From: an uncultured Alphaproteobacteria bacterium
GTDB taxonomy: Bacteria; Pseudomonadota; Alphaproteobacteria; RF32; CAG-239
NCBI GenBank assembly: GCA_910577205.1
Contig: CAJTMA010000002.1
Location: 123,136-187,135 of the forward strand
Direction of reading: 5' to 3'
Length of the DNA: 64,000 bases
Position 1 is the stretch's first letter. Each line of letters begins with the position of its first letter. The notes below the pieces were generated by a model. The model made no database searches. It was given only the letters and a program-made list of their open reading frames with translations, and was not told the DNA's origin. The translations under genes and the position numbers were made by a program. Positions 2,781 to 64,000 of the stretch are shown here, one piece after another.

Positions 2781-4598
2781 TTAAAATCTCGGACAAGCGT
2801 CAGCTTGGCTTTTTTCTACATAAATAATATCATATGAACGTATTGTATCTGTCGCTTGAACCTGAATTGTACATTCTCCGCCGAAACAATTAAAGTATGT
2901 CGCATTTTGGATTGTACAAAATCTGTATTCTTTATCATTGATGTATATGTTACTGACGGACAACTGGATTTCCCCGTTTAGCAAAGCTTTGGACTGATTA
3001 AGCTCCATTACCCGACGTGAACCGCTGCAATAGCCATACATAAAGAACAAACGCGTATTATTGCCCGGTTCTTTATAATAAGCCGTCGTATACGGACCGC
3101 CACTACACGCCTCAGCATCGGGCATGACTTCGTTAATTGTTATTGTATTTTTGCATTGTCCATAGCAAGTCAGCCCTTTGTATGATACTGTCGTACACGT
3201 ATGGCCATTTGTTTTATCTAAATAACCACCATCTGAACATTTAGCCGCAACTACACAGCTATTTCCGCTTTGCATATATCCAGATTTACAAGTCCAAGCG
3301 GAGCATTTGAGAGAGCAATCATTGTAATAAGCGGAACATACGGCATTTGCGGGAATAGTCACGGCTGTCCGGTTATGACAGTTATCGCCATAAGCTATTT
3401 CGCATTTGGAGGGACAATCGCTCCAGGTTTTGGCGCAGCCATAAACTGTTGATGTTGAGTTGCGGTTATGGCAGTTATCGGGATAAGCAATCTGGCATTT
3501 TGACGTGCAATCTCCCCAAACCTGTTTACAGCCATATGGCGCGGATACGGCACTGCGGTTGCGGCAGTTGTCCGGATAAGCCCGTTCGCATTTAGAACTG
3601 CAATCGCTCCAATATTTTTCGCAGCCATAAGGCGCTGGCACAGAAGAGCGATTTCGGCAGTTATCAGCGTAAGCAACCTGACATTTTGACGCGCAGTCCC
3701 CCCATGCGCTCTGGCAGCCATAAGGCGCGTTAACCGAACCCCGGTTATGGCAGTTATCGGGATAAGCAATCTGGCATTTTGACGCACAATCTCCCCAAGC
3801 CTGCTTACAGCCATAAGGTGTAGGTACGGCATTACGATTGCGGCAGTTGTCTGTATAAGCCCGTTCGCATTTAGAGCCGCAATCGCCCCAATATTTCTCA
3901 CAGCCATAAGGCGTTTGAGCCGAGGCACGGTTACGGCAGTTATCCGCATAGGCTACTCTGCATACAGAGCCGCAAGGCGAAGGATAATATGTTTGGCATC
4001 CGTAAGGCGTTGGCACGCTGGTCGGACAGGTACAAGTCTGGTATCTTGTTCCGCTGTCATCCGTGCAGGCCGCTCCTTTAATCTGTGGCGCAACACAAGA
4101 AGCATAGGGATAAGTAGCCGGATCGCAATAACATTTATATTTGCCGCCACAAGTGTCAGAACTCAGTTTTTTAGGGGCGGCACATTGTGAGGGATTGTAT
4201 TTGTAGGTTGCATCACAACATTTGTCGTAAATCTTGTCATTATATGGGCAAGATTTATTAAACAACCCCGAAGCACAAGACTTAACAGTGAAGCCATAAC
4301 GGGCACAGGTTGTGTCTGTGGGATCGCCAAATTCATTTCCCATTCCAGCAGGACTGAAATTTTGTTCTTTATTATTGGTGATAAAATAGACGCCAGCGGT
4401 TTTATAGGCAGAAGCCGGCAGACGGGTAACCCCGCCTGCCAGTGATAAGGTTTCAAAAGTTTGGCTTTGATTTTGTTCTGCGAGGTGCGTGTATGATAAA
4501 GAGTTAACCTCAGGAGAAACCGTTAAAGCCTGAGCTTGAACGGCAGCAGCTGTTACTGCGATAGCAGATAAGCCCGAAAGAAGACCGACTTTCATCAT
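2781..4598 (-). CDS. Secreted cysteine-rich tandem-repeat protein (family member 1)
   Basis: Signal peptide MMKVGLLSGLSAIAVTAAAVQAQA. About seven 31-aa repeats PYGCxxxWGDCxSKCxxAYxDNC(R/H)NR. Cys-rich N- and C-terminal domains. N-terminus paralogous to the partial ORF at 63678. Confidence 0.7.
   Translation of the reverse strand: MMKVGLLSGLSAIAVTAAAVQAQALTVSPEVNSLSYTHLAEQNQSQTFETLSLAGGVTRLPASAYKTAGVYFITNNKEQNFSPAGMGNEFGDPTDTTCARYGFTVKSCASGLFNKSCPYNDKIYDKCCDATYKYNPSQCAAPKKLSSDTCGGKYKCYCDPATYPYASCVAPQIKGAACTDDSGTRYQTCTCPTSVPTPYGCQTYYPSPCGSVCRVAYADNCRNRASAQTPYGCEKYWGDCGSKCERAYTDNCRNRNAVPTPYGCKQAWGDCASKCQIAYPDNCHNRGSVNAPYGCQSAWGDCASKCQVAYADNCRNRSSVPAPYGCEKYWSDCSSKCERAYPDNCRNRSAVSAPYGCKQVWGDCTSKCQIAYPDNCHNRNSTSTVYGCAKTWSDCPSKCEIAYGDNCHNRTAVTIPANAVCSAYYNDCSLKCSAWTCKSGYMQSGNSCVVAAKCSDGGYLDKTNGHTCTTVSYKGLTCYGQCKNTITINEVMPDAEACSGGPYTTAYYKEPGNNTRLFFMYGYCSGSRRVMELNQSKALLNGEIQLSVSNIYINDKEYRFCTIQNATYFNCFGGECTIQVQATDTIRSYDIIYVEKSQADACPRF
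3351..4007 (-). repeat. About seven tandem 93-bp (31-codon) in-frame repeats inside CDS 2781..4598, with higher-order 279-bp identity
   Basis: Identical 40-mers (ggttatggcagttatcgggataagcaatctggcattttgacg) recur at about 3466 and 3745, a 279-bp spacing. The protein shows the PYGC...NCRNR periodicity. Confidence 0.75.
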
Positions 4599-4713
4599 AC
4601 ACCTCTCTTATAACTGAAACCATATCAATCATAAGATTACCACACCCGCTGTAATCTGTCAAGCATTAATAAGGGTCGGGTTTTTATTCGTCTAAAATTC
4701 TTAGATAATTCGC

Positions 4714-4742
4714 ATAAAAAAGGCCTCCAAATTAAGGAGGCC
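4714..4742 (-). terminator. Rho-independent terminator for CDS 4775..5275
   Basis: ggcctcc-aaattaa-ggaggcc hairpin followed by a T-run on the minus strand. Confidence 0.6.
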
Positions 4743-4774
4743 CGTATAGAGAAGTTTGCAGGTTAAATTGAAGA

Positions 4775-5384: not shown

Positions 5385-6389
5385 TTATAGAAAATGCCGA
5401 TACCAAAAATGTTTGGCTTTCTTCAGCAAAGGACCATAAAAAGGTGTTGCCTGGAGTTCTTCATTATCAAGAATGATAGGATTAGGGCAATTAAATATCT
5501 TCTCCCGTTTATGCCTTTCCCGGACAGCTATCCGACCGCGGCAGTCAGAGTCAATATCCAAGTGCTGAATTTGCGAAGCATCAATTGTCAGCGAGCCGCG
5601 AAAAGATTTGCCAATATAGACTTCTTTTTTACCCCAGTTTTCAGTCAGCTGCATGACGGCATAGCAGTAATACCCCGTTGTCAGGCGGTGAAAACAAGAA
5701 TCATGCAATTCAAGGCTGCCGCTGTAAACATCGCCGACAGACAAGTCAAAACACTTGCCGCTGCGCACGCAGGCAATATCACAACGGCAATTATCGCCGA
5801 GTTTGATATTTAATAAATTTGAACGGGAAAAAGTAAGGCGGCCGTTAAAGCCCTCACCGATGATAAGCGTATCTGTCCAGAGGTTGTCGCTAAAATCCAG
5901 TTCAGCTTTAGAATTAGGGCTGATGATGATTTTATCGGTCAGGATACGGCTAAAATTTAAGCGGCAGGGTTTGAGCGTCTGCGGAATAACCAAGCGGCGT
6001 TTTTGAATATGGTTAAAACTGATGGAAAGCGTATCATAATTTTGAAAGAATGTATTCAAACGCTTTGTTGTCATTTCTGACGGCGAAAAATATTCTTCCT
6101 TGCCATCACGGATGACAACAGAAAGGGACAATGCTGCCGCAGCCTCCTGGGTCAGGCTGTATTGGTATTCTTTTACAAACTTCTGCAAGACTGAGAGATA
6201 ATTTTTATCAGCCTCTGCCGCACGATACGGACGCACAGATGAGATTTTATCCTGATATATTTCCAAAACCACTAAAGGTTCGGCATATTTATCACGCAGA
6301 ATCATCATAAATTCTTTCCCCAAGACCCGGGTCAGATAATAACCTTTTGCCAAATGAAACTGCACATCTCCGTCGTTTGTTTTCACCAT
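5385..6389 (-). CDS. Hypothetical protein; C-terminal half possibly beta-helix or bactofilin-like
   Basis: 334-aa ORF. The C-terminus has short G/V/I-rich repeats (GRLTFSRSNLLNIKLGDNCRCDIACVRSGKCFDLSVGDVYSGSLEL). Confidence 0.5.
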   Translation of the reverse strand: MVKTNDGDVQFHLAKGYYLTRVLGKEFMMILRDKYAEPLVVLEIYQDKISSVRPYRAAEADKNYLSVLQKFVKEYQYSLTQEAAAALSLSVVIRDGKEEYFSPSEMTTKRLNTFFQNYDTLSISFNHIQKRRLVIPQTLKPCRLNFSRILTDKIIISPNSKAELDFSDNLWTDTLIIGEGFNGRLTFSRSNLLNIKLGDNCRCDIACVRSGKCFDLSVGDVYSGSLELHDSCFHRLTTGYYCYAVMQLTENWGKKEVYIGKSFRGSLTIDASQIQHLDIDSDCRGRIAVRERHKREKIFNCPNPIILDNEELQATPFYGPLLKKAKHFWYRHFL

Positions 6390-14273: not shown

Positions 14274-14475
14274 ATTCCTGTCCCTTAATCGTTATGATGA
14301 TTAAAAAAGCTACTCAAATCTATTCATTTAAGCAACTGATTTTTACCGTTAAAAGCATAAATCTTAAAAAAACATTAAAAAACGTGGTATAACTTTGCTG
14401 GCTGATTGACGAGAAACGCTCCATTGGTTAACAATACCTTGTCGACATTTATTTTTTAACCATGGTAGCAGATTG

Positions 14476-17400
14476 ATGACTTTTAAAATTTTCAATTTCA
14501 GGAGCATTGTTACATATCTGACAATTGTATCTTTTTATATTGCCTCAACGGTTTCAGCCGTTGCTGCTCCTATGCCGCCTATCAGCCTGGCACAAATGTA
14601 CAGCTTAGCAGCGCAGGGCAATGTCCGCGCGCTGAGAGCCGCGGTTCAGCGCGGTTTGAACATTGACGCTACCGACCGCTATGGCAACACCGGCTTATGT
14701 CACTCAATCTACCAGCATAACTACACTGCTTATAACGCTTTTCACGCATCCGGCGCGAACACACGCCATCCCTGCATTCAGAATATTCCGACCGAGCAAT
14801 ATGATTATTTTATGAACTCAAGCAGGGTTCAACCTATTACGGCGACTCCGCGTGATGCTTATAAAGAATTTGCTGACGGCGAATTTATTTTCTCCACGAC
14901 CACTTGGGTTGTCGGCGGTCTGCTGCTTGCCGGCGGAATCACAGCTTTAGTTTTGAGCAGCGGCGGCAAAAAGAAAAAGAAAGCTTATTACTTTCCGCCA
15001 AACAATGATAATACATTTAAGCCAACAGATGACAGTTTAGCTGCTTTTGCCGGAACTTTGACACCCTCTGATCCGGTCAGCAATCCTTATGTTCCGGTCA
15101 AAATTACCAATGGCTTAAACACGACTGACTTTATTTTAAATAATGACTCCCAAATTACGCTGGATGACGGCAGCAAAAAAAGTTTGGTTGATACCATTAA
15201 CTTTAACGACTCAGTTTTGGAATACAGTAAATATCTGCAAGTGGGTATGAAAGCTATTGACGGCAATCAGGTGGTTAACGGGCAAATTCCGTTAACGGGA
15301 ACAGAAGTCGGCACCACGATTACGCTCCTGAATAATACTGTCGGTATGGCTGCTTTGCATAATGCCAATGCTATCAATAACAATACATTAAAAATCATTG
15401 CCCGCAACGGCACTCTGGGGATGGTCGGCAGTGACCGCTCTTTGATACGCAACAACGGCAATATTGATATTGCCTTTCAGGGAACGTCCCCAACGGATCA
15501 GGTTAACGGAATGTACGTGGACACGTCGTCAACGGCTATTAATGACGGCAAGATTACCGGAAATGTTGCCGTAGACAGCGCCACGGGTACTCTTATCGGA
15601 ATGCAGGGACGCTTGATTAATCAAGTGTCTAATCCGGCCGGTTCTATCCCTATTCAACTGACAAACAACGGAAAAATTGAATTAAGCGCCACAGCGGCCG
15701 CGGGGAAAACCATTTCCAACTCGCTTATCGGGATGGGCAGTTTTCTGGAAAAAGCTTTTCTGGAAGGTACTAAACTGCTGCGTCGCACAGGTTTTATCGA
15801 TATTGCAAACTACGGCGATATTGATTTGAACGTTAATCTGGGCGATACCGGGACTTATGACTCGACACAGAGCAACCTTTATGACGGTACGGGCGGCATT
15901 ATCGGTATTCGTGCCGATGCGCACACCACCGCTTCCAATAACGGTAATATTAATTTGACTATTGCTCCGGAAAGCGCCGCCGGAATCGAAAATTCTCATG
16001 CCGGTATGTTCTCTGTTCATGGCGGAACGATTTCCAATAACAAAAACATCACCATCAGCGGCGGCATTGGCGGCTATGGGATGCTCGGGGTACGCGGCGA
16101 AGGCACTAACTCTGAATTTAACACTTTAAACCCGACTATTGTCAATTCGGCTTCCGGGACAATTACCGTTAACAGTGTTGACGGTTTTGGTATGGCAACC
16201 AGACATGGCGGCACTGTCGTTAATAACGGCACGATTATTATGGGCGACAAAGGTACTGGCTTACAGATTAATGCCGGAAGCGGCTCTAATACCGGCACAA
16301 TTACGCTTAATAACGGCGGTATCGGTATGGCGATTAAGAAAAACACGACTTCCAGCGATGGAACTATTTATAATGCCAGCACGGCCAAGCTGCAAAATGA
16401 AAACATAATTACAATCAACAACGCGAACGGCTCAAGCGGTATGTATATTGAAGACGGCCTGGCTAATAACTTAGGCGGCGTGATTAATGTCAACGGCATT
16501 AACACCACAACGGAATCGTCTTATGGTATCCGGGCGCTTAACGGAAAAGTTTTAAACAGCGGCGAAATCAATATGAATGTTCTGTTGTCCGGCGATTTGG
16601 ATTCTTACGGCATTTACGGGGATAACGCAACGACTGTCAATAACAGCGGAACAATTACATCTGTCCGCAAAGGCACGGGTATTTATACTACAAGCGGTTC
16701 AAGCACCAACTCTGGCAAAATTACCATGAACGGCCGGGGCAGCACGGGCATGGCTTCAGAAAGCGGCGCAATTACCAATACGGATAAAGGCGAAATAACC
16801 GTTATCAGCGGCACTGGTATCAAATCAACATCCGGACAAGTGATAAATGAAGGTAAAGTGATTATCACCGATGGCTCGGCATCAACCGGTATCTCCAGCG
16901 GCAGCAGTGTTATTAACTCCGGTTCAATCTCAATTACCGGCGCGGATTCGACCGGTATTGCCGTTGAAGAAAACGGCACAGCCTCCAACAGCGGTATTAT
17001 TACCCTGACCAGTAACCGTAACAGCACAGAAAACTTCGGTATGGTTTCGGCCGGAGGTGATCGGGCTCAGATTGAAAACAGCGGTATTATTACCCTAAAC
17101 GGCTATAACTACGCCTCCAGCAAAGAAAAAGGCTACGGAATGTCTATCGGTGACGGCCAAGCTATTAACAACAATATGATTACCATTAATCAGATGTACG
17201 GTTACGGCATGGCTTCCACTACCGGTACTTTGACAAATAACGGTGACATTACGTTAACCAACGGCGGTTACGGCATTAAAGGCGAAAGCGGTGAATCCTT
17301 TAACTCGGAAGGCGGCACAATTATCATTACCGGCACGCCCGTTTTGGAAAGCTCTTACGGTATGGCTATGGAAGACGGGACTGCCAAAAACTTTGGTAAA

Positions 17401-20400
17401 ATTGATGTTACCGGCAGCACGACAAATGATGCGACATATGGTATTTATGTCAATGGCGGTAACGGCATTAACCATAATCAGATTGATATGCGGTCAGACA
17501 ATGCTTATGGTATTTTTGACGCGGCATCCGGCGATGGTGCAATTACTAACTTTGCCGGCGCAGTCATCAACTTACATGGCAACAACTCTACCGGTATGCA
17601 AAGTTCCGGCAACAAAGCTGAAAACTACGGAACGATTAATATCGGCGTTAATAACGGCGGAACAGTTACCGGCGGTGTTAACGGCATCGGCATGACCGCA
17701 AATGACGGGACTACGGCCCTTAATTCCGGCCAGATTAACATGAACGGCGCAAATGCCGTCGGTATGTTTGCTGACGGCGGTACGGTTATCAACTCAGCTG
17801 ACGGCGTTATTACCATGAACGGCAATGGCGGCACAATCTTTAAAACCAGCAATGACGGTACGGCAATTAACCTGGGCGACATTGTCATTAATGCCCAAGA
17901 TTATAATCTGTTTACCACAACAGATACCGATGAAGGCAACTTTGTCAATAACGGCAATGTTACGGTCGGCGCTTCTGGATCACAGGTTATCCGCGTCGGA
18001 GATAACTCCAGCGTTACCAATAACAAAAATATTGATTTAAATGGCAGCAATGGTTTCATAATCTACACCAGCGGCAGCGGCAATGCGACCAATAACGGCA
18101 CTTTAAATATTGGTGCGGGAAGTGATAACTCGCATGGTATTTACATGAGCGAAACAGCTAACGGAACAGTTATTAATTCTTCGACAGGCATTATCAATGT
18201 TAACGGAAGCAATTCTAACGGCATGACGCTGGCTTCCAATGATACCTCTGCCAGCATTACCAACAAAGGTAAAATTAATGTCAGCGGTAATGGCTCAAAG
18301 GCGATTGCGGCCAGCAACGGCGGCACCATCAATAATGAGGGGACTATTACCATGAACGGCGGCAGCGCAGCCATTGAAGCGACTGGAGCTGTTGTCAATA
18401 ATAAAGCCGGCGCTACAATTACAACTGCCGCAAACAGCGATGCAGACGGCATAAAGGTCATCATGGGAGCAACACCTGACGCAGAAGCGGCAACGGTTAC
18501 CAATGACGGCACAATCATTATCAACGGTAATGGCGATGCTATTAATGCCAAAGGTTCGTCAACAGCCGCCGGTATGATGCATTCTATTACCAATAACAGT
18601 GTTATTACCATTAACGGTTCAGGCAGCGGCATTTTTGCAGATGCGGCAAATATCAATAACACCTCTTCGGCACGCATTAACATTAGCGGCAGCGGTTACG
18701 GCATCCGCCAGACCAGTGGTACAATCGACAACAGCGGGACAATTACAGTTACCGGAAATAACGGCACAGGTATTTCCAGCGGCGGAACGGCAACAAATAA
18801 CGGAACGATTACTGCCGGTGGAACAAATGCCAAAGGAATGGAACTTACTACAGGCGGCACAGGAACTAACAATTCCACAATTATAGCCAGCGGAACGGAT
18901 GCGGTCGGTATTTATGTTAATGGCGGCACTGCCGAGAATACAGGTAATATTTCAGCGTCAGGAACGGGCGCAACCGGCGTGTATGCAACAGGCGGAACAG
19001 CTTATAACCAGACCTCTATAAGCGTTAATGGCGATAATGCAATCGGCATGGCAGCAGGAAACGGCACAGTCACTAACGGCAAAACGATTGTCACGATTGA
19101 AACGGATGAAAGAGGCGATCCGGTTCTGGATGCTGATGGTAATGTTGTCACCAATACAGAACACAAACCCGGGGTTATTGATGTTACCGGAAATAATGCA
19201 GCCGGTATGAAATTAACCGGAACTGGAAAAGTCCTCAATAATACCGGCGCACTTATTTCTGTCAGCGGTGATGGCGCAACAGGTATTTGGGCTGCAGGCT
19301 CAGGCGTTGCCGAAAATGAAGGGACAATTACCGTATCTAACGCGACTAACGGCAGTTCGGGGATGAAAGCCACCAGCGGCACAGCCACAAATAAAGGCAC
19401 AATATCTGTCAGCGCAGACGGCGCTTGGGGAATGGATGCGGCCGGAGGCACTGTCGTCAATGACACAACCGGCATCATTGACCTTACGACAGCAAACAGT
19501 GTGGGTATTTATGTTCACAGCGGCAACGGCGAAAACAGAGGCGTTATCAACTTTACCGGAGAAAATACTATCGGGCTGTTGGCTGCCGGCGGAACAGCCA
19601 CTAATGCGGCGGATATAACAATCAACGGCACAGGTGTTGTCGGTTTATATGCTCATGGCGGAACGGTTGTTAATGCCAGCGGAAAAACTATTACCTTTAG
19701 TAACGGCGAAGCCGCTATCAAGGTTGACAGCGGCAGCGGTCGCAATGCAGGTACGATTAATGTCGACGGCGGAAACTTAAACGCTATTCTGGTTAGCGGT
19801 GGCAATGCCTCTAATGACGGCACGATAGAACTCACCTCCTCTGCCAGCGGCAGTATCGGCATGAAAGCAACTGCCGGAACAGCAACCAACAACGGGACGA
19901 TTACTATCGCCAGCAATGCGGCAGGTATGGATGCTTCCGGTTCAGGACAAGTCGCCAACAACAAAACAATTACTGTTTCCGGAGCAAATGCGGTTGGCAT
20001 GAGCGCTTCCGGCGGCACGGCGACCAATAACAGCAACGGCACGATTACAGTCACCGGAGCTAATGCGAAAGGTATGGCTGCCAGCAGCGGAACTGTCTTA
20101 AACAATGGCACAATCAATGCAACCGCAGCCAATACGATTGCGATGTATGCCAACGGCGGCACGGCCACTAACGGCAGCAGCGGCAAAATCAACACCTCGG
20201 CTTCCTCGGCATATGTTATGCTGGCTGAGGGAACAGGTACAGTCAACAACCAAGGGACAATATCTTATTCCGGTTCTGGGGCGGCCTTACAAGCGAATGG
20301 GGCAACGGCCAATAACAGCGGTATCATTACAGCCACTAACGGTACGGGCATGGCCGCGTACGGGACAGCATCTTCAGGAGGCAAAGCTGTCAACAGCGGC

Positions 20401-28693: not shown

Positions 28694-29536
28694 CTATGGG
28701 CGGCGGGTGCAGACAGGAATCTTGCAGATTTTAATTCTGGTAATCCCCTTGCTGTTGGTATGTTTACGGTACAAAAAGCGGCGGCTTTTGAATAACAGCA
28801 CTTGCAGTTTTTTACCGAAGCTGAAAGGTTCATATGAAGCTATTTGGGAATTCTGGGCATATACCAGCCAGCCCAATACTCGTTCCATTGCGTGAGCCAG
28901 CGTTCCGCCGGCATGATTAGGTGCAGGCACATCAAAATCATTTGCCATATAATTCAACTTGAGCAGCGGTTTCATCAATTTCGCACGGCAGATAAACATT
29001 GTTCCCGCAACAAACCTGCGTTCTTTGGGCGGCAACCCCAGTTGCTGCATTATCTCTTCAGCGCGGCGGGTAGCTTCCCTATCCTCTTTTCCTGATTTGA
29101 CGATTAATTTCCAATGGCTCAACATTCCGATTTCAGAATGTTTTTCCAGCAAATTATATGCTTCAACAAATGTTTGTCTGTCTTTCAAAAAGCCCATCAG
29201 GCAATTGCGCCATTCTGAATTTTTGAAACATCCATATGGCAAATGTGCCGGTTTAGGTAAATCGCGTTTGGTATGCAACTTTATCACATAACCATAGTCA
29301 TCCAAGCTCACGGATTGCAGCACCTTTAAAAACGGTGCCAAGTCATATCCTCGATTGTCAACCATCATAATCTGCGCATCATTTTTGAATGCTAAAATCT
29401 CTTTTTTTACCGCGTCACAATCTTTAACAAGCGTCACATACAAATCATATGCCCTGCCCTCCAAGCTGCGCAGGCTGTTCAACATTTCCGGAAGCATATC
29501 GGCATAATAAAGGTGGAGATGGACTAAGATTTTCAT
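28694..29536 (-). CDS. Polysaccharide biosynthesis protein, RgpF (rhamnan synthesis F)-like
   Basis: N-terminal MKILVHLHLYYADM resembles the HLHLFY motif of the RgpF family. AAGGA RBS before ATG 29536. Confidence 0.5.
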   Translation of the reverse strand: MKILVHLHLYYADMLPEMLNSLRSLEGRAYDLYVTLVKDCDAVKKEILAFKNDAQIMMVDNRGYDLAPFLKVLQSVSLDDYGYVIKLHTKRDLPKPAHLPYGCFKNSEWRNCLMGFLKDRQTFVEAYNLLEKHSEIGMLSHWKLIVKSGKEDREATRRAEEIMQQLGLPPKERRFVAGTMFICRAKLMKPLLKLNYMANDFDVPAPNHAGGTLAHAMERVLGWLVYAQNSQIASYEPFSFGKKLQVLLFKSRRFLYRKHTNSKGITRIKICKIPVCTRRP

Positions 29537-29622
29537 TTTTAATCCTTGGATAAAACTATTGCAATACCCGGGTGATTGTAATAGACTTCCGGTAATAGTC
29601 AACTCTAAACAGGAATTATCTC

Positions 29623-30510
29623 ATGGGCGCTACGCTTTTTGCCAAGAACCTTATCCGACTGCTGAAATTCGACCTCAAAGCTCATCACAAAGCCATAAAG
29701 AAATATGCTGATTATGAATATATGCTTGATAATCTCAAATATGAAATTTGTGATGAAATCAAATCTTTAAAACTGCCGAAAGTTTTAGGGCAGAAAGCAA
29801 GTGTTGCCAAAATTATCAAGGACAAGTGCAGTGTGGTTCGCTACGGTGATGGCGAATTTAACCTGATGTTCGGCAGAGCTATCGGTTTTCAGGAATATAC
29901 GCCCGAGATAGCCGCCCGTTTGACCGAAGTTCTTCAATCAAACGATCCAAATATTCTGGTCGGCATTCCCGACCGTTTCGGCTCTCTCGCGGATATTGAC
30001 GCGCAATCACGCGCTTATTGGCGGACATTTATGGCGAAGAACCGCTCTCAGATATATAACTATTTGAATTTTGAACAAACTTATGCCGATGCTTGTTTTA
30101 CGGCTCATGCTATTGAACCGGATAATGAAAATACCCCTAAAGATGAAGCGGAAATCGAAGCTTATTACAACGAAATCCGCAAAATTTGGGATGGTCGTGA
30201 TATTACCATCATCCGCGGCGAAGGCACTGAAGTTTTTCAACATGATATTTATGACAATGCCAAATCGGTTAATTATATCTATGCCCCTAAAGCCCATGCG
30301 TTCCGCGAATATAACCGTATTTTAGCCGAAGCGACAGCTCAACCCAAAAACCGGTTGATGATTGTGGTTCTCGGCCCGACCGCCACCGTTTTGGCTTATG
30401 ACCTCGCTAAAGCTGGTTATCAGGCTTTAGACATCGGGCATCTCGGCAAAGCCTATGACTGGCTCAAACGCAAAGAAAACATCATCATTGGTAAATTTTT
30501 CGCCTCCTAA
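29623..30510 (+). CDS. GT-D-type glycosyltransferase (DUF1792 / SP_1767-like)
   Basis: VVRYGDGEFNLMFG segment resembles the DUF1792 signature. Confidence 0.5.
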   Translation: MGATLFAKNLIRLLKFDLKAHHKAIKKYADYEYMLDNLKYEICDEIKSLKLPKVLGQKASVAKIIKDKCSVVRYGDGEFNLMFGRAIGFQEYTPEIAARLTEVLQSNDPNILVGIPDRFGSLADIDAQSRAYWRTFMAKNRSQIYNYLNFEQTYADACFTAHAIEPDNENTPKDEAEIEAYYNEIRKIWDGRDITIIRGEGTEVFQHDIYDNAKSVNYIYAPKAHAFREYNRILAEATAQPKNRLMIVVLGPTATVLAYDLAKAGYQALDIGHLGKAYDWLKRKENIIIGKFFAS

Positions 30511-30717
30511 ACCGAGGCGGTTAGCCAGGCGCGGCCTAGAGCGTTTGGTGCGACAACGCAGAGTGACAAAGCTCCCGCGTTGCTCTAAAATACAGATGGT
30601 TAAGTTAGCGCCATGATTAATAAAATTGGCGATTAGCCGAAGTTTAGCTGCTTTAAGAACTATGCTCTGAAGATGCTCGTTGGCGGCCTCATGCATAACT
30701 TCATTATGTGCCCTTGT

Positions 30718-31566
30718 TTATTTTTTACTTTGCCAAAGTGACAAGCGGAGTTTAAGTGCTGTCAGCCACGGAGGAGAACTTTTGATTTTGCGATTTTCGT
30801 AATTGTCTTTTGTTTTCGTTTGGCGGTAGAAATCAGCGGCATTCTCCAATGTCAGCGGAAAGTATTTCTGGTAGTCAGCTTCGTCATGGGCTGCCCAGAC
30901 AACATTTTCCTTAACTACTTTAGCAGGCATTCCCGCGGCGATGCAATGCGGCGGAATGTCCCGGCTGACAACACTGCCAAACCCAAGAATACAGCCATTG
31001 CCCAGAGTAACGCCTTTCAAAATAACCGTCCGGCGTCCGACCCATACATTGTCTTCGATGACAACATCTCGGTCATGGTTAATTATGTTTCCTGAAAAAT
31101 CATAAATCGGGTGATAATCCGTATTATAAATGGTCGTATCGGCCAAGCCGCAGTCTCCCATGGTGATTTTGCCGCCTTTGGCAGCGACCAGCGGCGGCCA
31201 AGTGCACCACAGCTTCTTAGCGGTCACGGTTGCGGCTTCTTTCAATTCCCATTCGCCGGTAACAGCCGAATTGCCGCCTATTTCCAAATATGAACCATCA
31301 AAAGCCGATACCTTGACATTCATTAGTTCGCAGCAACGGCCAAACTTCACATGGGCATTGCGGATAATAAACTGACAGCCTTGCAGATAACAGCCTTCTT
31401 CCAGTTCTAGGGATGAATCGCCATAGAGCTTAATTTTACTATCTTTAATAAACACCTTTTTACCGAGTTTTACACTGTTGTTTTTCCCCGAAAAATGAAT
31501 GGCGGCGTTTTTATAAAATTGCGGCAGCCCTTCAATGGTATTATTCTTTTTACGGTTTTGCATCAT
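30718..31566 (-). CDS. Hexapeptide-repeat (LbH) sugar O-acetyltransferase
   Basis: C-terminal VVIEDNVWVGRRTVILKGVTLGNGCILGFGSVV hexapeptide repeats. ATG 31566 with AGGAAAA RBS. Confidence 0.75.
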   Translation of the reverse strand: MMQNRKKNNTIEGLPQFYKNAAIHFSGKNNSVKLGKKVFIKDSKIKLYGDSSLELEEGCYLQGCQFIIRNAHVKFGRCCELMNVKVSAFDGSYLEIGGNSAVTGEWELKEAATVTAKKLWCTWPPLVAAKGGKITMGDCGLADTTIYNTDYHPIYDFSGNIINHDRDVVIEDNVWVGRRTVILKGVTLGNGCILGFGSVVSRDIPPHCIAAGMPAKVVKENVVWAAHDEADYQKYFPLTLENAADFYRQTKTKDNYENRKIKSSPPWLTALKLRLSLWQSKK

Positions 31567-31567
31567 C

Positions 31568-32533
31568 TTATTTTCCTGATATTTCCGGCACTTCAAAACC
31601 AAATTCGTTTTTTATTCTTTCAATAATTTCCCGGTTGTCATACTTGGCTTTGCCATCGCCTTGGTCAACCCAGACGGAATGCCCGGAATGCCCCTGCCAT
31701 GCGTGATCGTAGTAATCTGTCACTTTTTGCCCGGAAGCAATAAACGGATCGGCAAATTTATAGCCCAGATTTACCAACATCCCAAACCAATAAGCCCCGG
31801 TATCGGAATGCTTATACATATTGCCAAAAAAGCTGCGGCTTTTCTCAGTTATCTCTCGGGCATTTTTTACATTAACCATAGACACCCACTCGTTAATCCG
31901 GCATTCCCGGCTAAAGGCCTGCTTGGGATTAAATTTATGAATATCTTTTGTTTTGGGAGATGGTGTCAGCGGCCAATGCGGTGACGGGCGGCTGCCGTCC
32001 ATAATTTTTTGCGGATTGCATATTTCCGCAAAACGACAGCGCCAACATTGTCCCAATTCCCCGACGACAGCCATTTTTTCATCGCTTTGCAGCGTTTGGA
32101 GATACAGCGAGGCAACATCTTGCAGATACATCACATCATCATGCATCATCATCAGATAATCTTTATCCGTATGGTCTAAGGCATACTGATAACGAATGTC
32201 CTCGCGGTTATGCGAATATTTTTTGGAATAAAAACGCTTCCAGTTGCTAAGCATAAATTTTATTGTCCGCATATATTCCGGGCGAAAACCGCGAACATAT
32301 ACTTCTTTAATTCCGACATTGCGGGTATTGACCCGGACATCCAGTTTCCAAGGCTTAAAATATTCTGCCACTGCCGGGTGAGTATAAAGCTCGTAAGCAC
32401 CATTATTGGAGCAGTCATCATTGATATAAACCGTATCAATCAAATCGCCTGAATGTTTTTTTAAGGTCATTAACGTATAAAGCAGGGATTCCGGCTTTTT
32501 ATAAGAGTTAATCGCTACATCAATTTTAGTCAT
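31568..32533 (-). CDS. Hypothetical protein in polysaccharide cluster, possibly GT-A-fold glycosyltransferase
   Basis: 321 aa. NDDCSNNG segment and cluster context. Overlaps the upstream GT2 gene by 4 nt. Confidence 0.45.
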   Translation of the reverse strand: MTKIDVAINSYKKPESLLYTLMTLKKHSGDLIDTVYINDDCSNNGAYELYTHPAVAEYFKPWKLDVRVNTRNVGIKEVYVRGFRPEYMRTIKFMLSNWKRFYSKKYSHNREDIRYQYALDHTDKDYLMMMHDDVMYLQDVASLYLQTLQSDEKMAVVGELGQCWRCRFAEICNPQKIMDGSRPSPHWPLTPSPKTKDIHKFNPKQAFSRECRINEWVSMVNVKNAREITEKSRSFFGNMYKHSDTGAYWFGMLVNLGYKFADPFIASGQKVTDYYDHAWQGHSGHSVWVDQGDGKAKYDNREIIERIKNEFGFEVPEISGK

Positions 32534-33519
32534 ACAAATAATCTCGCTAAAGTAAAATGTCCGTTAAAGAACAGGCGGCAAGCCATAGATTTACGCCAGC
32601 CGAGAAGTTCCGGTTTCAAAGCTCCCTGCTCATACAAAGGCAAAACCAGTTCTCGCGCTTTCTCCAAAGACTGGCGGCGGGTTGCCTTATCTTTCATGCG
32701 GCGCAGCGGTTGCGAAATAACCGATTTGAAAATAAATCTGCTGATATAACGTTCCAGCAATTTATAATCATCCTTATTCTGCACGCGTTTAGATTTAAGG
32801 AAATAGTCATACAGCTCCTGTCCGGCCGCAGCGTGTACCCGAACATACTTATCGGTTTTGCCCTGATTCATGACTGATGTCGAGCTATCCCGGTAGTATA
32901 AAAGGCGCGTATCCGTATGGACGATATTCAAAACATGAAACATAGCTTTCAGCGTGAAAATCGTATCTTCCGCCGGTTGGATATCTTTAGGAAATTCAAT
33001 GCCGTCAATAGCGTCTTTTTTATACAGGCGATTCCAAACCAGCACCGAACCGCCACGCGGATTACGAAACCAAAAATGAAACGCATCATGCGAAAATTCG
33101 GCGGGTATTTTCTCAACGTCATAATGCGGCGGATTAACCATCACAAAATCATCAGGAACGGTTTCATTGGTAAATTCGGCAATATCCGCATTATATTTGG
33201 TAATCAAATAATAAAGAGCTTCCATCGCCTGGGGATGCAGCACATCATCCTGATCCAGCAAGGCAACATAGGGCGACACAGCGCTTTTTAATCCATGATT
33301 TCGCGCCATAGAACAGCCGGCATTTTCCTGTTCAATTAACCGAAAACGGGCATCTGCGGCAACATATTCGTTCACAATATCCGCCGTAGCGTCAGTAGAA
33401 CCGTCGTTGACGCAAATAATTTCCATATCGTCAAATGTTTGGTTTTTTACAGAATCTAAGCAAGGGCGAAGATACTTCTCAGCGTTATACAATGGGATAA
33501 TAAGCGAGATTGAGGGCAT
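32530..33519 (-). CDS. Family-2 glycosyltransferase
   Basis: ISLIIPLYNAEKYL...VNDGSTDAT...DQDD GT2 signatures. Confidence 0.8.
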   Translation of the reverse strand: MPSISLIIPLYNAEKYLRPCLDSVKNQTFDDMEIICVNDGSTDATADIVNEYVAADARFRLIEQENAGCSMARNHGLKSAVSPYVALLDQDDVLHPQAMEALYYLITKYNADIAEFTNETVPDDFVMVNPPHYDVEKIPAEFSHDAFHFWFRNPRGGSVLVWNRLYKKDAIDGIEFPKDIQPAEDTIFTLKAMFHVLNIVHTDTRLLYYRDSSTSVMNQGKTDKYVRVHAAAGQELYDYFLKSKRVQNKDDYKLLERYISRFIFKSVISQPLRRMKDKATRRQSLEKARELVLPLYEQGALKPELLGWRKSMACRLFFNGHFTLARLFV

Positions 33520-44395: not shown

Positions 44396-44642
44396 GATTG
44401 AAATAATTTTAAAAATTAATAAATATAGTTAATAAAAAAAGTTCATGATAAATGACCTGCTCATTGATAATGCATAGTCATAATAATTAGTTTATTGCCG
44501 CAACATAACATACATCGCACAGCTGCGCAAGTATTTTTTGTCTATTCTTTTGCAATGCTATTTATGGGATAAACAATGCAAGAAAATTTTAACTTACGGC
44601 TGATACTCTTTGAGCTGGTTAATTTTGTAAATGAGGCTGAAA

Positions 44643-45854
44643 ATGGAAAAGCTTACTGAAGTTCTTAAACACTATGGCGTCAATGGAAAAATCGCGGATA
44701 TTTCCGAAGGGCCGCTCGTTACATTAATCGAATTTAAGCCAGAACCGGGAACTAAGTTAAAAACTGTTACAGCCTCGCTTGACGATATTGCCCGCGAACT
44801 TGGCATTCCTTCACTGCGAGTAGAAGCCATTGAGAAAAACGGAACTATTGGTTTTGAAGTCCCTGCCGCTCAAAGGAAAAATATTGACTTCAAGCCCCTG
44901 CTCTCTTCTTCGGAGTTTCTGACTTTTCAAGGCGATTTGCCAATCATATTAGGAACGGATATCGCCGGACATCCGGTTATTGCCGATTTGGCAAAAATGC
45001 CGCATTTGCTGGTAGCCGGCACAACAGGTTCGGGGAAATCAGTGGGGCTGAATACATTTATTTTATCCCTCATTGCAAAAAAGAAACCAGCTGATTTGAA
45101 ACTCATTCTGATTGATCCGAAACGTATTGAATTCAGTATCTATAACCGTCAAAAATATATGCTCGCGCCGGTCGTTACAGAAATGAGCGATGCTGACAAT
45201 TGTTTGACTTATTTGGTTAATGAAATGGAGTCCCGGTACAGCTTATTTGAAAAAGCAATGGTTCGAAATATCAATGAATATAATTCAGATGCCGGACATT
45301 TGCCTTATATCGTTTGTGTCATAGATGAGTTTGCAGATCTTATGGCTGCCAACAAAAAAACGGAAGCGGCGGTTCAACGGCTGGCACAAAAATCCAGAGC
45401 AGCCGGCATACATATTATTTTAGCGACTCAGCGTCCTTCTGTGGATGTGGTAACAGGTGTTCTCAAGGCCAATTTTCCCTGCCGTCTGGCTTATAAAACC
45501 GCAAGCGCTGCAGATTCCCGTACGATTATCGACGGTTCAGGCGCAGAAAAACTTTTGGGACGCGGCGACGCCTTATATCTTGCCGCGGACGGACGGCAGC
45601 AAAGAGTGCATGGCGCTTATTTGCCCGGCTCGGAAATTGCCGCCATGCTTGAGCCTTATCGCGGTGAAGTGCAGCCCCTGCCGCAGATTTCTGCGCAATC
45701 TTCAAAAACAGAAACAGCGCCCCGCAAGTCTTTGGGCTTTTTCAAAAGTATGTGGAATTTTTGGGCTTCCCTGCGGCAAAAAGATAAAAAACTTATCATG
45801 AACGGGCTAAGCTTTTTATTCGGCCTGGTGACCGGAAATAAACGGAAGAAATGA
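44643..45854 (+). CDS. FtsK/SpoIIIE-family DNA translocase motor lacking the N-terminal membrane domain and the C-terminal gamma domain
   Basis: Walker A AGTTGSGKS and Walker B CVIDEFADL. FtsK alpha/beta domains only. C-terminal hydrophobic tail LIMNGLSFLFGLVTG. GAGG RBS before ATG 44643. Confidence 0.8.
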   Translation: MEKLTEVLKHYGVNGKIADISEGPLVTLIEFKPEPGTKLKTVTASLDDIARELGIPSLRVEAIEKNGTIGFEVPAAQRKNIDFKPLLSSSEFLTFQGDLPIILGTDIAGHPVIADLAKMPHLLVAGTTGSGKSVGLNTFILSLIAKKKPADLKLILIDPKRIEFSIYNRQKYMLAPVVTEMSDADNCLTYLVNEMESRYSLFEKAMVRNINEYNSDAGHLPYIVCVIDEFADLMAANKKTEAAVQRLAQKSRAAGIHIILATQRPSVDVVTGVLKANFPCRLAYKTASAADSRTIIDGSGAEKLLGRGDALYLAADGRQQRVHGAYLPGSEIAAMLEPYRGEVQPLPQISAQSSKTETAPRKSLGFFKSMWNFWASLRQKDKKLIMNGLSFLFGLVTGNKRKK

Positions 45855-55735: not shown

Positions 55736-56992
55736 TTATTCTGTATAATTTTCCGTAATGATTAATGTTACATCTCCTGAGCAAGTAGCAATAGTTTCAT
55801 CATTATCATACTCCCAAGCAATCTTAACAGAACCCTTATTATAAGCGTATTCATGAAGATATTCGCCGCTATCTTCGGTTAAAAACTCCACGCCCAGAGG
55901 GAGATTTGAACAAGTCTTCGAGAAAGAAGATATATAAGCTCCGTCCCCGATATAACCAATACGCTCCGCTCCCGGATCTAAAATAATTTCTGCCCAGTTA
56001 CTCCAAGCATTAGCGCTGACATTCCCTGAAAGAGCAACCTCTGTTACCGTCCCCCTCTTCCCTGTGCTGCTCTCTACAACAATGCTGCTATCAGCTTGTT
56101 TTACAGAACATACATTTCCATTCTTTTGTCCTACAAAATTTAAATACAAATACCATTTTTCATTCGTACATACATCACCACTTTCTTTCGGCTCGCCATA
56201 ATAAACCACCGGGCGAACGTAATCATCACTATTTTTGTAATTTGTATTTTTAGTGTTATCGCTCTTGTCAAATTCCCATGCCGTCTCTTTATCATACTCA
56301 CAAGAAGACCAATACCATTTTGCTTCAAATGGCACAGTTCCATAATCTTTTAACATTGCTATTGTTGTGTCTAACAGCTTCCCAACAGAATACATTTGTG
56401 AAAATTCTTTAATGCTGGGCAGAAACCATTTTGTTTTCTTACAGAAATCCTGAGTACATCCCGCAGGCTGATAGCTATTGGCTGCCGTCGCCGCCGGCGT
56501 TCCGCCACAGCTGCTTCCACAGGCTAATATTTTATCCGTATTAGAACGACCATCCACACTACAACTATCTACCGACGCGGGATTGTCATTATATTGGCAA
56601 TTCGTTAAGTTCGGCATATCATAGCTATTGTTTGACCAATACATCGTTTCACTTCCTGCTGTGCCATCTTTCTTCACGTCAGTCAATGAAACTGCTAATT
56701 TGTTGGTTTCATCAAAAACAATACCTATTGGCGTTTTGCCGGAAATAACATTTTTGCTGACCGTACCGTCGCCATACAAAATCGGCAAAGAATTTTCAGA
56801 GGATTTTTTGGGGCAAAAAACTTTAGACATATCTGTCGGACACTTAACGGCAACTTGCCCCTCACAATCCGCCGCGCTCATCGTATAGCCTAAGTCAGCG
56901 CAGTCCGGCGCAAGGGTACAAACAGCATAAAGGGGAGAAGAATAAAGGATTGTTCCGGATAATAAAACGGACGCAAACAGGGGAGTTTTCAT
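55736..56992 (-). CDS. Secreted cysteine-rich protein (family member 2)
   Basis: Signal peptide MKTPLFASVLLSGTILYSSPLYA. 27 Cys. Same architecture class as 2781..4598. Its 3-prime end and terminator are duplicated at 54887-54960. Confidence 0.6.
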   Translation of the reverse strand: MKTPLFASVLLSGTILYSSPLYAVCTLAPDCADLGYTMSAADCEGQVAVKCPTDMSKVFCPKKSSENSLPILYGDGTVSKNVISGKTPIGIVFDETNKLAVSLTDVKKDGTAGSETMYWSNNSYDMPNLTNCQYNDNPASVDSCSVDGRSNTDKILACGSSCGGTPAATAANSYQPAGCTQDFCKKTKWFLPSIKEFSQMYSVGKLLDTTIAMLKDYGTVPFEAKWYWSSCEYDKETAWEFDKSDNTKNTNYKNSDDYVRPVVYYGEPKESGDVCTNEKWYLYLNFVGQKNGNVCSVKQADSSIVVESSTGKRGTVTEVALSGNVSANAWSNWAEIILDPGAERIGYIGDGAYISSFSKTCSNLPLGVEFLTEDSGEYLHEYAYNKGSVKIAWEYDNDETIATCSGDVTLIITENYTE

Positions 56993-57197
56993 AACACACC
57001 TCGTAGATATTACTAAATCAAAACCTGTATTCAGAATATCATACTGTTAGGCATTTGTAAAGGTATTATGAACATGGGGTTTATTTTTGGCTAAAGGAAA
57101 TAGGTAAAACAGCTATGCCGGTATTACGCCAAGGCTATAGCGTGAAGATGAAGCCTCTACCGAGAGCATCATGGGGCAATAGCTATCCCAGATTTTA

Positions 57198-63535: not shown

Positions 63536-63677
63536 TTTGCAATACGCAAACTTCTGATAAATCTTAATATCTATTCCTTTTAGACCAATAAAAAATTGCC
63601 TCTCATTAATGATTGACAGATCGCAGATTGTGTGATAGCCTTATAACTGATATGGTTTCAGTTATAAGAGAGGTGTA

Positions 63678-64000
63678 TGATGAAAGTCGGTCTTCTTCTG
63701 GGCTTATCTGCTTTGGCAGGTATCGCTGCCACCATTATAGCAGGGACTGGTGACCCTTTATCATACCCACACCTCACACAACTAAATCAAAGCCAAACTT
63801 GTGAAACCTTATCTTTGGCAGACGGGATAACCCGTCTGCCTGCTTCAGCCTATAAAACTGCTAAGGTTCATTTTGTGGTCAATTCATCTGATAAGATGGG
63901 TTTTGATTACAAGGAGCAGGAGTTTAATCACGACAATATTAACCGTTGCAAAGCACTGGGTTTTAGTAAGACAGGTGCTTGCGCTGCCGGGCAGTATGCC
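63678..64000 (+). CDS. Secreted cysteine-rich protein (family member 3), 3-prime partial; N-terminal paralog of CDS 2781..4598
   Basis: MKVGLLLGLSALAGIAATIIA...SYPHLTQLNQSQTCETLSLADGITRLPASAYKTAKV closely parallels MMKVGLLSGLSAIAVTAAA...SYTHLAEQNQSQTFETLSLAGGVTRLPASAYKTAGV. Runs off the window end. Confidence 0.6.

What the first reader, a model, noticed from the sequence alone, without database searches (positions are those of the whole stretch)
63678..64000. Inverted paralogs of the Cys-rich secreted family at both ends of the window
The N-terminal about 70 aa of the partial ORF at 63678 (+) and of CDS 2781..4598 (-) are near-identical in signal peptide and first domain, yet lie about 59 kb apart in opposite orientation. 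Inverted paralogs are substrates for large inversions. Together with a third Cys-rich gene at 55736 this is a multigene family concentrated in one chromosomal neighbourhood, suggesting host- or surface-interaction proteins under diversification.
Basis: seen in the sequence. Interest (0 to 1): 0.6.

Follow-up and report, generated by a model that had tools for sequence, protein, structure and literature searches.

The report
Variable secreted-protein family, shared start cassette
The two genes at the window ends belong to an undescribed, strain-variable family of exported cysteine-rich proteins in uncultured gut Alphaproteobacteria; each member starts with the same promoter, leader and signal-peptide cassette, and nothing indicates that the pair drives a 59-kb inversion.

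Summary
The similarity is real but overstated. The right ORF starts at 63677, not 63678. The repeat is 80-82% identical DNA (4374-4707 vs 63568-63883) and includes about 110 bp of non-coding upstream sequence. It contains one 50-bp perfect block. Protein identity is 46-49%, not near-identical. Both genes carry the same cassette: an upstream box, TTGACA 33 nt later, a weak -10, a roughly 30-nt 5' leader, a Sec signal peptide, an N-domain and a Cys-rich core. The leader is 93-100% identical across species whose flanking DNA is only 41-59% identical. Downstream, family members are built from interchangeable modules: 31-aa four-Cys repeats that vary in number, DUF1566/Lcl_C-like domains and others. 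The third gene (55736) is not a sequence homologue of the other two. It does share the promoter architecture, and its DUF1566 module is the C-terminal module of other members. No inversion was seen: 24 contigs keep the parental left junction and two ~210-kb contigs are collinear with the window. In the commonest lineage the RecG-adjacent slot holds a different family member, so the inverted pair is strain-specific. No recombinase gene lies in the window. The closest analogue is the Borrelia Erp/upstream-homology-box family. I class it as a new member of a known kind, of moderate interest.

The parts
63677..64000 (+). First 108 codons of the right-hand family gene, cut by the window end: Sec-type signal peptide, N-domain (NQSQ..E..S.ADG..RLPASAYKTA.V.F) and the start of the Cys-rich core.
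   Evidence: The orthologue P0123 is 94% identical; full-length homologues P0126 and P0127 are 687 and 719 aa.
63568..63676 (+). Right promoter-leader module: box TTAGAC 63580-63585, -35 TTGACA 63613-63618, 17-nt spacer, -10-like TAGCCT 63636-63641, near-invariant leader 63648-63676 with SD GAGGTG 63670-63675.
   Evidence: The promoter assignment is inferred from conservation; the TSS has not been mapped.
2781..4598 (-). Left family gene, 605 aa: signal peptide, N-domain, Cys-rich core to about aa 192, seven 31-aa four-Cys repeats, then a C-terminal module shared with P0003 and P0005.
   Evidence: No Pfam, NCBIfam or PDB match.
4599..4707 (-). Left promoter-leader module: box TTAGAC 4695-4690, -35 TTGACA 4662-4657, -10-like TAATCT 4639-4634, leader 4627-4599 with SD 4605-4600.
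   Evidence: Strains carry at least 4 promoter alleles at this locus while the leader is invariant.
4374..4707 (.). Left arm of the inverted repeat.
   Evidence: Longest perfect block 4578-4627.
63568..63883 (.). Right arm of the inverted repeat.
   Evidence: Longest perfect block 63648-63697.
3340..4013 (-). Seven tandem 93-bp (31-aa) repeats (motif AY.DNC.NR....PYGC..W.DC.SKC). Copy number differs between strains.
   Evidence: TRF 3470-3913, period 93; motif every 93 nt from 3392 to 3950; products of 511-605 aa; indels and pi up to 0.10.
4721..4743 (-). Intrinsic-terminator-like hairpin of the upstream 166-aa gene. It marks the outer edge of the left module, so the left gene is its own transcription unit.
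55736..56992 (-). Third gene, 418 aa: a different signal peptide, the same short Cys motif (C..LGY..C..CP.D), and a DUF1566/Lcl_C-like module that forms the C-terminal module of other family members.
   Evidence: PF07603, 27.9 bits, below the 34.9 cut-off; 45% over 250 aa to P0107, E 1e-55. Its DUF1566 segment is mosaic between strains.
56993..57094 (-). Diverged copy of the same promoter-leader architecture in front of the third gene: TTAGCC box 33 nt before TTTACA, and SD context GAGGTGTGTTATGA.
   Evidence: Box-plus-(-35) and the SD context each occur exactly three times in the window, at these three genes.

Best explanation
The two window-end genes are paralogues in a lineage-specific multigene family of Sec-exported, disulfide-rich modular proteins. 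The hosts are uncultured gut Alphaproteobacteria (Candidatus Scatocola and relatives, Rhodospirillales).

Each member carries its own copy of a conserved 'expression-export cassette'. In order, the cassette consists of:
- an upstream T(T/A)AG(A/C)C box at a fixed distance from a TTGACA -35 element;
- a weak -10;
- a 5' leader of about 30 nt with a strong SD, almost invariant across species;
- a signal peptide, an N-domain and a Cys-rich core.

Behind the cassette, genes are assembled from interchangeable modules: 31-aa four-Cys repeats of variable number, DUF1566/Lcl_C-like domains and several unnamed C-terminal domains.

The inverted repeat is therefore two copies of this cassette. They are kept alike by common descent and by purifying selection on the cis-regulatory leader, possibly helped by occasional gene conversion. 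It is not a device for inversion. Chromosomal slots that hold a member are replaced between strains; the RecG-adjacent slot holds different members in different lineages.

Shown: homology, cassette anatomy, leader conservation, modularity, strain variability and collinearity of the 59-kb segment.
Inferred: that the box, -35 and -10 form the promoter; that the leader acts in translation or post-transcriptional control and makes the members co-regulated; that the products are surface or extracellular binding proteins with a constant base, a stalk of variable length and a variable tip.
For: - Repeat anatomy.
- Cassette in independent genes found by protein similarity, not by the motif (L003, L005, L006): the leader is 93-100% identical, against 41-59% for the adjacent promoter and CDS.
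- The leader motif occurs 5 times in the Ca. Scatocola faecipullorum MAG and in no other of 185,579 species representatives. It occurs at 120 or more human-gut metagenome loci.
- Upstream of the box every locus is unique; at least 16 different flanks were seen.
- One N-terminus is joined to bodies of 267-694 aa.
- The left protein and the right orthologue are 46% identical over 198 aa and then have different architectures.
- The third gene shares the box spacing, the SD context and a Cys motif. Its DUF1566 module is 45% identical to the C-terminus of family member P0107.
- Strain diversity peaks at the promoter, linker and repeats.
- Slot replacement next to RecG.
- No recombinase or transposase gene in the window.
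Against: - There are no expression data and no mapped TSS. The consensus promoter scan did not call TTGACA-17-TAGCCT/TAATCT because the -10 is weak.
- What the leader does is unknown. It has no significant RNA structure and no Rfam match.
- Localisation and ligand are inferred only. The AF2 model is poor (mean pLDDT 56.6) and has no structural neighbours.
- Much of the flank/body reassortment in the related abundant species could be assembly chimeras across a ~1-kb constant region, and some 'alleles' are frameshifts.
- Part of the leader's apparent invariance in the metagenome set was imposed by the search pattern. Only the protein-derived set is unbiased.
Confidence: 0.7

Rival explanations
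1. One reading: the inverted 5' repeats are substrates for RecA-mediated inversion of the intervening 59 kb, producing an inversion polymorphism.
For: A 50-bp perfect block within about 310 bp of 80-82% identity exceeds the minimal length usually quoted for RecA recombination (own knowledge). Because both copies carry a promoter, an exchange inside the leader would leave both genes intact. One contig (L002) joins the left gene body to a different upstream flank exactly at the module edge.
Against: 0 of 24 contigs show the recombinant left junction. NODE_19 and Ga0081460_1000056 span both loci and are collinear with the window. The commonest lineage has a different gene in the right slot, with only 16 bp of perfect identity to the left copy. 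L002 is not the product expected from this inversion (its flank is Lon-HU, not RecG); it has 4x coverage and may be a chimera. The segment carries housekeeping genes.
Confidence: 0.07
2. The invariant leader is a site for a dedicated site-specific recombinase that moves gene bodies between slots whose promoters differ in strength, as in the Mycoplasma vpma/vsp systems.
For: Synteny breaks fall exactly at the module edge in L002, L148 and L149. Upstream flanks are reassorted with body plus downstream flank in the related species. Promoter spacers are hypervariable next to an invariant leader.
Against: No recombinase gene lies in 64 kb. Every copy has its own -35/-10, so no silent cassettes exist. 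In the window-versus-L149 replacement the whole intergenic region, promoter included, differs, so the break is at the RecG stop rather than in the leader. Chimeric assembly and species-level rearrangement explain much of the reassortment.
Confidence: 0.08
3. The 5' similarity is only recent duplication or gene conversion between paralogues, and the leader has no function of its own.
For: Paralogues within the abundant related species share near-identical sequence over hundreds of residues. Promoter alleles at the left locus look mosaic, with patches of the right-copy type.
Against: The leader stays 93-100% identical between species in which the adjacent promoter and the first codons are only 41-59% identical. 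Conversion within a genome cannot produce that. In the window, identity falls on both sides of the 50-bp block.
Confidence: 0.12
4. Polymorphic-toxin-like system: a constant N-terminal delivery region with variable C-terminal toxin domains and downstream immunity genes.
For: The architecture is a constant N-terminus followed by a variable C-terminus, with allelic replacement of C-termini.
Against: No toxin domain was found by Pfam. The gene downstream of the left gene is a convergent metallophosphoesterase, not an immunity-like ORF. The identifiable variable module is DUF1566/Lcl_C, a binding-type domain.
Confidence: 0.03

Closest known systems
Borrelia burgdorferi Erp (OspE/OspF/Elp) 'upstream homology box' family
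   Same: Many genes share conserved promoter/operator DNA, a conserved leader peptide and the first mature residues. The remainder of the proteins is diverse and recombinant, and members occupy allelic slots that differ between strains. [quoted passage not shown] This matches the anatomy found here.
   Different: Erp proteins are lipoproteins encoded on cp32 prophage plasmids and are regulated by BpaB, BpuR and EbfC. Here the genes are chromosomal and sit among housekeeping genes. There is no lipobox and no prophage context, the proteins are Cys-rich with tandem repeats, the most conserved element is the 5' UTR, and the regulators are unknown.
Mycoplasma variable surface protein families (Vlp, Vsp, Vpma, Vsa) (own knowledge)
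   Same: Paralogues have a highly conserved 5' UTR and signal peptide. Tandem repeats in the mature part change in number and produce size variation.
   Different: Those systems switch through homopolymer tracts in the promoter spacer, or through a locus-encoded recombinase acting at a site in the 5' region, usually with a single active promoter. Here there are no such tracts, no recombinase gene, and a promoter in front of every copy.
'Putative mobile promoters': near-identical 5' regulatory regions upstream of non-homologous genes in prokaryotes (own knowledge of the 2012 Nucleic Acids Research study by van Passel and colleagues)
   Same: The same promoter/leader DNA is found in many genomic contexts, with sharp boundaries to locus-specific flanks.
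   Different: Here the repeated unit continues into the coding sequence (signal peptide, N-domain, Cys core), so it is a gene 5' module rather than a promoter alone.
Legionella pneumophila Lcl adhesin, C-terminal domain (Pfam PF07603 Lcl_C / DUF1566)
   Same: A related domain forms the variable C-terminal module of several family members (P0031 scores 40.2 bits, above the cut-off) and the core of the third window gene.
   Different: There are no collagen-like repeats. The third gene scores below Pfam's cut-off. The left and right genes of the window lack this domain.

Membership tests
Erp/UHB-type family (shared promoter-leader-signal cassette with diverse mature parts) | Conserved promoter/operator DNA upstream of every member | tested here: met
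   box, -35, -10 and leader stand at fixed spacing in front of all members examined.
Erp/UHB-type family (shared promoter-leader-signal cassette with diverse mature parts) | Conserved leader peptide and first mature residues joined to diverse bodies | tested here: met
Erp/UHB-type family (shared promoter-leader-signal cassette with diverse mature parts) | Allelic slots that hold different members in different strains | tested here: met
   The RecG-adjacent slot holds the window-type gene or a 687-aa double-DUF1566 gene.
Erp/UHB-type family (shared promoter-leader-signal cassette with diverse mature parts) | Lipoproteins encoded on cp32 prophage plasmids (needed for true Erp membership) | tested here: not met
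   There is no lipobox Cys in either signal peptide. The context is chromosomal housekeeping genes. The family therefore works like Erp but is not a member.
Erp/UHB-type family (shared promoter-leader-signal cassette with diverse mature parts) | Simultaneous co-expression of members | not testable with these tools
   Needs transcriptomics.
Invertible-DNA antigenic/phase variation (Hin/Fim, Mycoplasma vpma-Xer1 type) | Site-specific recombinase encoded at the locus | tested here: not met
   A Pfam scan of the window ORFs found no integrase, invertase or transposase.
Invertible-DNA antigenic/phase variation (Hin/Fim, Mycoplasma vpma-Xer1 type) | A single expression site with promoterless silent copies | tested here: not met
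   Every copy has its own TTGACA and -10.
Invertible-DNA antigenic/phase variation (Hin/Fim, Mycoplasma vpma-Xer1 type) | Both orientations present in populations | tested here: not met
   24 of 24 contigs are parental at the left junction and two spanning contigs are collinear. Short-read assemblies only, so rare variants would be missed.
Slipped-strand phase variation (Mycoplasma vlp type) | Homopolymer or short tandem tract in the promoter spacer or 5' CDS | tested here: not met
   The spacers GATCGCAGATTGTGTGA and GATTACAGCGGGTGTGG and their alleles have no runs longer than 3.
Pfam PF07603 Lcl_C / DUF1566 (third gene) | Score at or above the Pfam gathering threshold | tested here: inconclusive
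   27.9 bits against a cut-off of 34.9. The gene is nonetheless 45% identical to the C-terminal module of P0107, and related member P0031 passes at 40.2 bits.
Bacterial lipoprotein | Lipobox with an invariant Cys at the end of the signal peptide | tested here: not met
   MMKVGLLSGLSAIAVTAAAVQAQA/LTV and MMKVGLLLGLSALAGIAATIIAGTG contain no Cys.
Polymorphic toxin (CdiA/Rhs-like) | C-terminal toxin domain with a co-oriented immunity gene downstream | tested here: not met
   No toxin domain was found. The downstream gene is a convergent metallophosphoesterase.

The most novel reading that the evidence does not exclude
The roughly 30-nt leader, invariant across species, is the recognition element of a dedicated system. 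That system could be a trans-acting RNA or protein that allows only one or a few family members to be translated at a time. Alternatively it could be a recombination site used to exchange gene bodies between slots whose promoters have hypervariable spacers. Either would amount to a new adhesin or antigen variation mechanism in common but uncultured human-gut Alphaproteobacteria.
Probability: 0.1. Interest if true: 0.65.

Novelty: new member of a known kind. Interest (0 to 1): 0.35.

Why it matters
The host organism is widespread in human gut metagenomes: one of its proteins is listed, with an identical sequence, in 819 blocks of the collection's index. It is nevertheless uncultured and its surface biology is unknown. 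This family is its most strain-variable feature in the window and has no Pfam, NCBIfam, PDB or literature annotation. If the products are host- or glycan-binding surface proteins, they are candidate determinants of strain-level colonisation. The invariant leader gives a simple DNA probe for listing all members. It also explains the recurrent contig breaks in short-read assemblies of these genomes.

Tried and rejected
- **RNA hairpin.** CTTATAACTGA-N7-TCAGTTATAAG in front of the SD looked attractive, with wobble-compatible changes in the left copy. It is not conserved in L003, the 5' arm overlaps the -10/TSS region, and folding is no better than shuffled controls (z = +0.2 to +1.0 in 4 of 5 sequences). 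No Rfam family matched at gathering or E<=1 thresholds.
- **Structure.** AF2 with a 44-sequence alignment gave mean pLDDT 56.6; only the repeat hairpins were confident. Foldseek against the PDB found nothing at E<=0.001. phmmer against the PDB, NCBIfam and Pfam gave nothing for the left and right genes.
- **Peptide scan of GTDB genomes** with the 108-aa fragment found nothing.
- **Word-indexed protein search** with that fragment found only two fragments. The exhaustive phmmer search was needed to find P0123, P0126 and P0127.
- **Full-length window-type right gene with its native downstream context** was not recovered. Contigs carrying the window's RecG or Mfd end inside the 50-bp shared block, and P0123 comes from a frameshifted 0.6x contig at a different locus.
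- **Upstream 166-aa gene as a conserved partner:** rejected, since it has no similarity to the gene upstream of P0005.
- **Also rejected:** lipoprotein, polymorphic toxin, autotransporter and recombinase-driven shufflon (see the membership tests).
- **Literature searches** for Scatocola and for DUF1566/cysteine-rich/Alphaproteobacteria found nothing on this family.

Full report
**1. Checking the observation**

The right-end ORF starts at 63677 (ATGATG...). Reading from 63678, as the finding states, is out of frame. Its 108 codons read MMKVGLLLGLSALAGIAATIIAGTGDPLSYPHLTQLNQSQTCETLSLADGITRLPASAYKTAKVHF... The left gene, 2781..4598 (-), encodes 605 aa beginning MMKVGLLSGLSAIAVTAAAVQAQALTVSPEVNSLSYTHLAEQNQSQTFETLSLAGGVTRLPASAYKTAGVYF.

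BLASTP gives 41/84 identities (49%, E 5e-19). At the DNA level the pair is the only inverted repeat of 40 nt or more in the window. The arms are 4534-4707/63568-63741 (80%) and 4374-4504/63753-63883 (82%), separated by an 18-nt indel. The longest perfect block is 50 bp, 63648-63697 = 4627-4578.

The homology, orientation and 59-kb spacing are therefore real. 'Near-identical over 70 aa' is an overstatement.

**2. What the repeated unit is**

I fetched upstream regions of homologues found by protein similarity alone: L003/P0005, L005/P0007 and L006/P0003, which are 57-61% identical to the left protein. They align with both window copies. All share the same layout:
- a box ..TTTTAGAC.AA.AAAAA..;
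- TTGACA exactly 33 nt after the TTAG;
- a 17-nt spacer;
- a weak -10-like hexamer (TAGCCT, TAATCT or CATTCT, often preceded by TG);
- the leader TGATATGGTTTCAGTTAT(A)AGAGAGGTGTATGATGAA.

Between species the leader is 93-100% identical. The promoter segment is 49-59% identical and the first 60-70 nt of CDS 41-44%. Upstream of the box nothing aligns. The left module begins right after the terminator of the preceding 166-aa gene.

The leader has no significant secondary structure and no Rfam match. An 11-bp palindrome that I noticed in the right copy is not conserved in L003, so I dropped the hairpin idea. No gene for a recombinase, integrase or transposase lies anywhere in the window.

**3. Distribution**

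Among one genome for each of 185,579 species, the leader pattern occurs only in a Candidatus Scatocola faecipullorum MAG (Rhodospirillales, chicken gut). It occurs there five times, nearly always at contig ends.

Most of those loci belong to another abundant relative. In that species one N-terminus (MMKVLPWFALLFACTAVPADAH...) precedes bodies of 268-694 aa, and a second (MMKAVLGL...) precedes a 267-aa protein. At least 16 different upstream flanks abut the box.

The exhaustive phmmer search with the right-end fragment found only 25 cluster representatives among 1.84 billion, two of them spurious low-complexity repeats. The family is therefore narrow in taxonomic range. NCBI labels the left-gene cluster only 'hypothetical protein [Alphaproteobacteria bacterium]'.

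**4. Architecture of the proteins**

The 94%-identical orthologue of the right gene (P0123) aligns with the left protein at 46% over 198 aa (E 1e-42). The aligned part covers the signal peptide, the N-domain and a Cys-rich core ending ..C.CP. After that the two differ:
- The left gene has seven 31-aa four-Cys repeats with a 93-bp period and a C-terminal domain shared with P0003 and P0005.
- The right type has other Cys-rich segments and a long C-terminal region (P0126 and P0127, 687 and 719 aa).

Other members end in one or two DUF1566/Lcl_C-like modules or in small Cys-rich domains. There is no lipobox, so these are not lipoproteins. No Pfam, NCBIfam or PDB relative exists for the N-domain, core or repeats. 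The AF2 model is confident only for the β-hairpin repeats, and Foldseek finds nothing.

**5. The third gene**

Gene 55736..56992 is not similar to the left gene by BLASTP (E 0.1). Three links tie it to the family:
- Residues 20-265 are 45% identical (E 1e-55) to the C-terminal DUF1566 module of P0107, which has the family N-domain and repeats.
- It carries the same short motif C..xG[FY]..C..CP.[DN] as the left gene. These are the only two hits in the six-frame translation.
- Its upstream region is a diverged copy of the same architecture. The box-33 nt-TT[GT]ACA pattern and the SD context GAGGTGT.T.ATGA each occur exactly three times in 64 kb, at these three genes.

**6. Diversification**

Across seven strains of the window species, nucleotide diversity is about 0.01 in the flanks. 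It rises to 0.08-0.11 in the promoter (4601-4720) and at 4241-4360 (the linker after the N-domain), and to 0.05-0.10 with indels in the repeats. At least four promoter alleles exist at the left locus, differing mainly in the -35/-10 spacer, while the leader never changes. Products of 511-605 aa reflect repeat-number changes. In the third gene the DUF1566 segment is replaced by a diverged version in other strains, inside flanks that are 99% identical.

**7. The inversion hypothesis**

The 166-aa protein encoded upstream of the left gene is found with an identical sequence in 819 blocks of the collection. All 24 contigs read show it followed by the left gene, which is the parental junction.

NODE_19 (211 kb) carries the left gene at 85.7 kb and Mfd at 30.3-33.8 kb on the same relative strands as in the window. 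The JGI contig Ga0081460_1000056 does the same. The segment is therefore collinear.

In these strains the gene next to RecG is a different family member: 687 aa, MKRISNTLF..., with two DUF1566-like modules. Nucleotide similarity to the window stops at the RecG stop codon, window 63531. Its promoter and leader are a diverged variant that shares only 16 bp of perfect identity with the left copy. This allele accompanies the commonest Mfd variant (222 blocks, 24 of 24 contigs read). The window's Mfd and RecG variants occupy 30 and 35 blocks.

The inverted pair is thus a strain-specific state of a replaceable slot. A 92.8%-identical copy of the right gene sits behind an unrelated flank in L148.

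One 4x-coverage contig, L002, joins Lon-HU and a third promoter variant to the left gene body. I cannot tell whether this is a real rearrangement or a chimera across the shared block. Logan (k=31) contigs end inside that block, which explains the many contig breaks.

**8. Reassortment in the related species**

I classified upstream flank, C-terminus and downstream flank for each locus. This shows one slot (U03..D02) with truly different bodies of 402 and 532 aa. It also shows many cases in which the upstream flank is reassorted with body plus downstream flank. Some apparent alleles are frameshifts. A constant region of about 1 kb invites mis-assembly, so I treat this only as suggestive of recombination within the cassette.

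**9. Interpretation**

The best-supported reading is a paralogous family built on a shared promoter-leader-signal-N-domain cassette with exchangeable bodies. The closest described analogue is the Borrelia Erp/upstream-homology-box family. [quoted passage not shown]

This is not a member of that family: there is no lipobox and no cp32 context, and the proteins are unrelated. Mycoplasma Vlp/Vsp/Vpma systems (own knowledge) resemble it in the conserved 5' UTR and signal peptide and in repeat-size variation. Their switching devices, homopolymer tracts or a locus recombinase with a single promoter, were looked for here and not found.

Function is inferred. Sec export, many disulfides, a repeat stalk of variable length and Lcl_C-like tips suggest extracellular or surface binding proteins under diversifying selection. 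Why the 5' leader is nearly invariant across species remains unexplained and is the most interesting loose end.

**10. Verdict**

The family and diversification parts of the interpretation are supported; the inversion part is not. I class this as a new member of a known kind, interest 0.35.

Noticed in passing
window 63536-64000 versus L149:5616-7835 (also L150, L154, L155): The slot downstream of recG holds entirely different family genes in different strains of one species whose flanks are 98-99% identical. The window has the MMKVGLLL... gene. The commonest lineage has a 687-aa gene with two DUF1566-like modules. Similarity ends at the recG stop codon.
   Followed up: yes
window 56218-56694 (third gene, aa ~100-258) versus L149:14692-15156: The DUF1566-like core of the third gene is a diverged mosaic segment between strains (overall 74% aa identity), inside flanks that are 99% identical. 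Products are 414 or 418 aa.
   Followed up: partly
L002:1-7430: One low-coverage contig places FliN-Lon-HU and a third promoter variant directly upstream of the left gene body. The break with the window lies exactly at the module edge. It is either a real rearrangement or an assembly chimera.
   Followed up: partly
window 14473-22263 (+): A giant 2596-aa ORF with strongly positive AT skew and no Pfam hit in my scan. The collection's precomputed annotation lists PF27417 BigA_3rd. Its length varies between strains (2595 or 2618 aa). It is probably a large adhesin.
   Followed up: no
window 4775-5275 (-) and 5385-6389 (-): Two hypothetical proteins (166 and 334 aa) upstream of the left gene match no family. 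The 166-aa protein is exceptionally invariant: the identical sequence occurs in 819 blocks of the collection.
   Followed up: partly
window 28694-33519: A cluster of surface-polysaccharide genes lies inside the 59-kb segment: RgpF-like, GT-D, a hexapeptide transferase and GT2.
   Followed up: no
window 44631-45854 (+): An FtsK/SpoIIIE-like ORF of only 407 aa (alpha and motor domains, no N-terminal membrane part). It is 403 aa in other strains.
   Followed up: no
L098, L140, L071, L111, L127 (related abundant species): Several family genes are frameshifted, two of them right after the polymorphic ..STADG(D/N)(F/L).. site. They may be pseudogenes, assembly errors or an on/off mechanism.
   Followed up: no
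window 56993-57000; L023-L027 contig ends: Logan unitigs also break a few bases upstream of the third gene's ATG, inside its SD/ATG context. That 5' end therefore appears to be repeated or variable in the genome as well.
   Followed up: partly
window 3395-3949 (-): A 184-aa ORF in another frame of the 93-bp repeats is a by-product of the repeat periodicity, not a gene.
   Followed up: no
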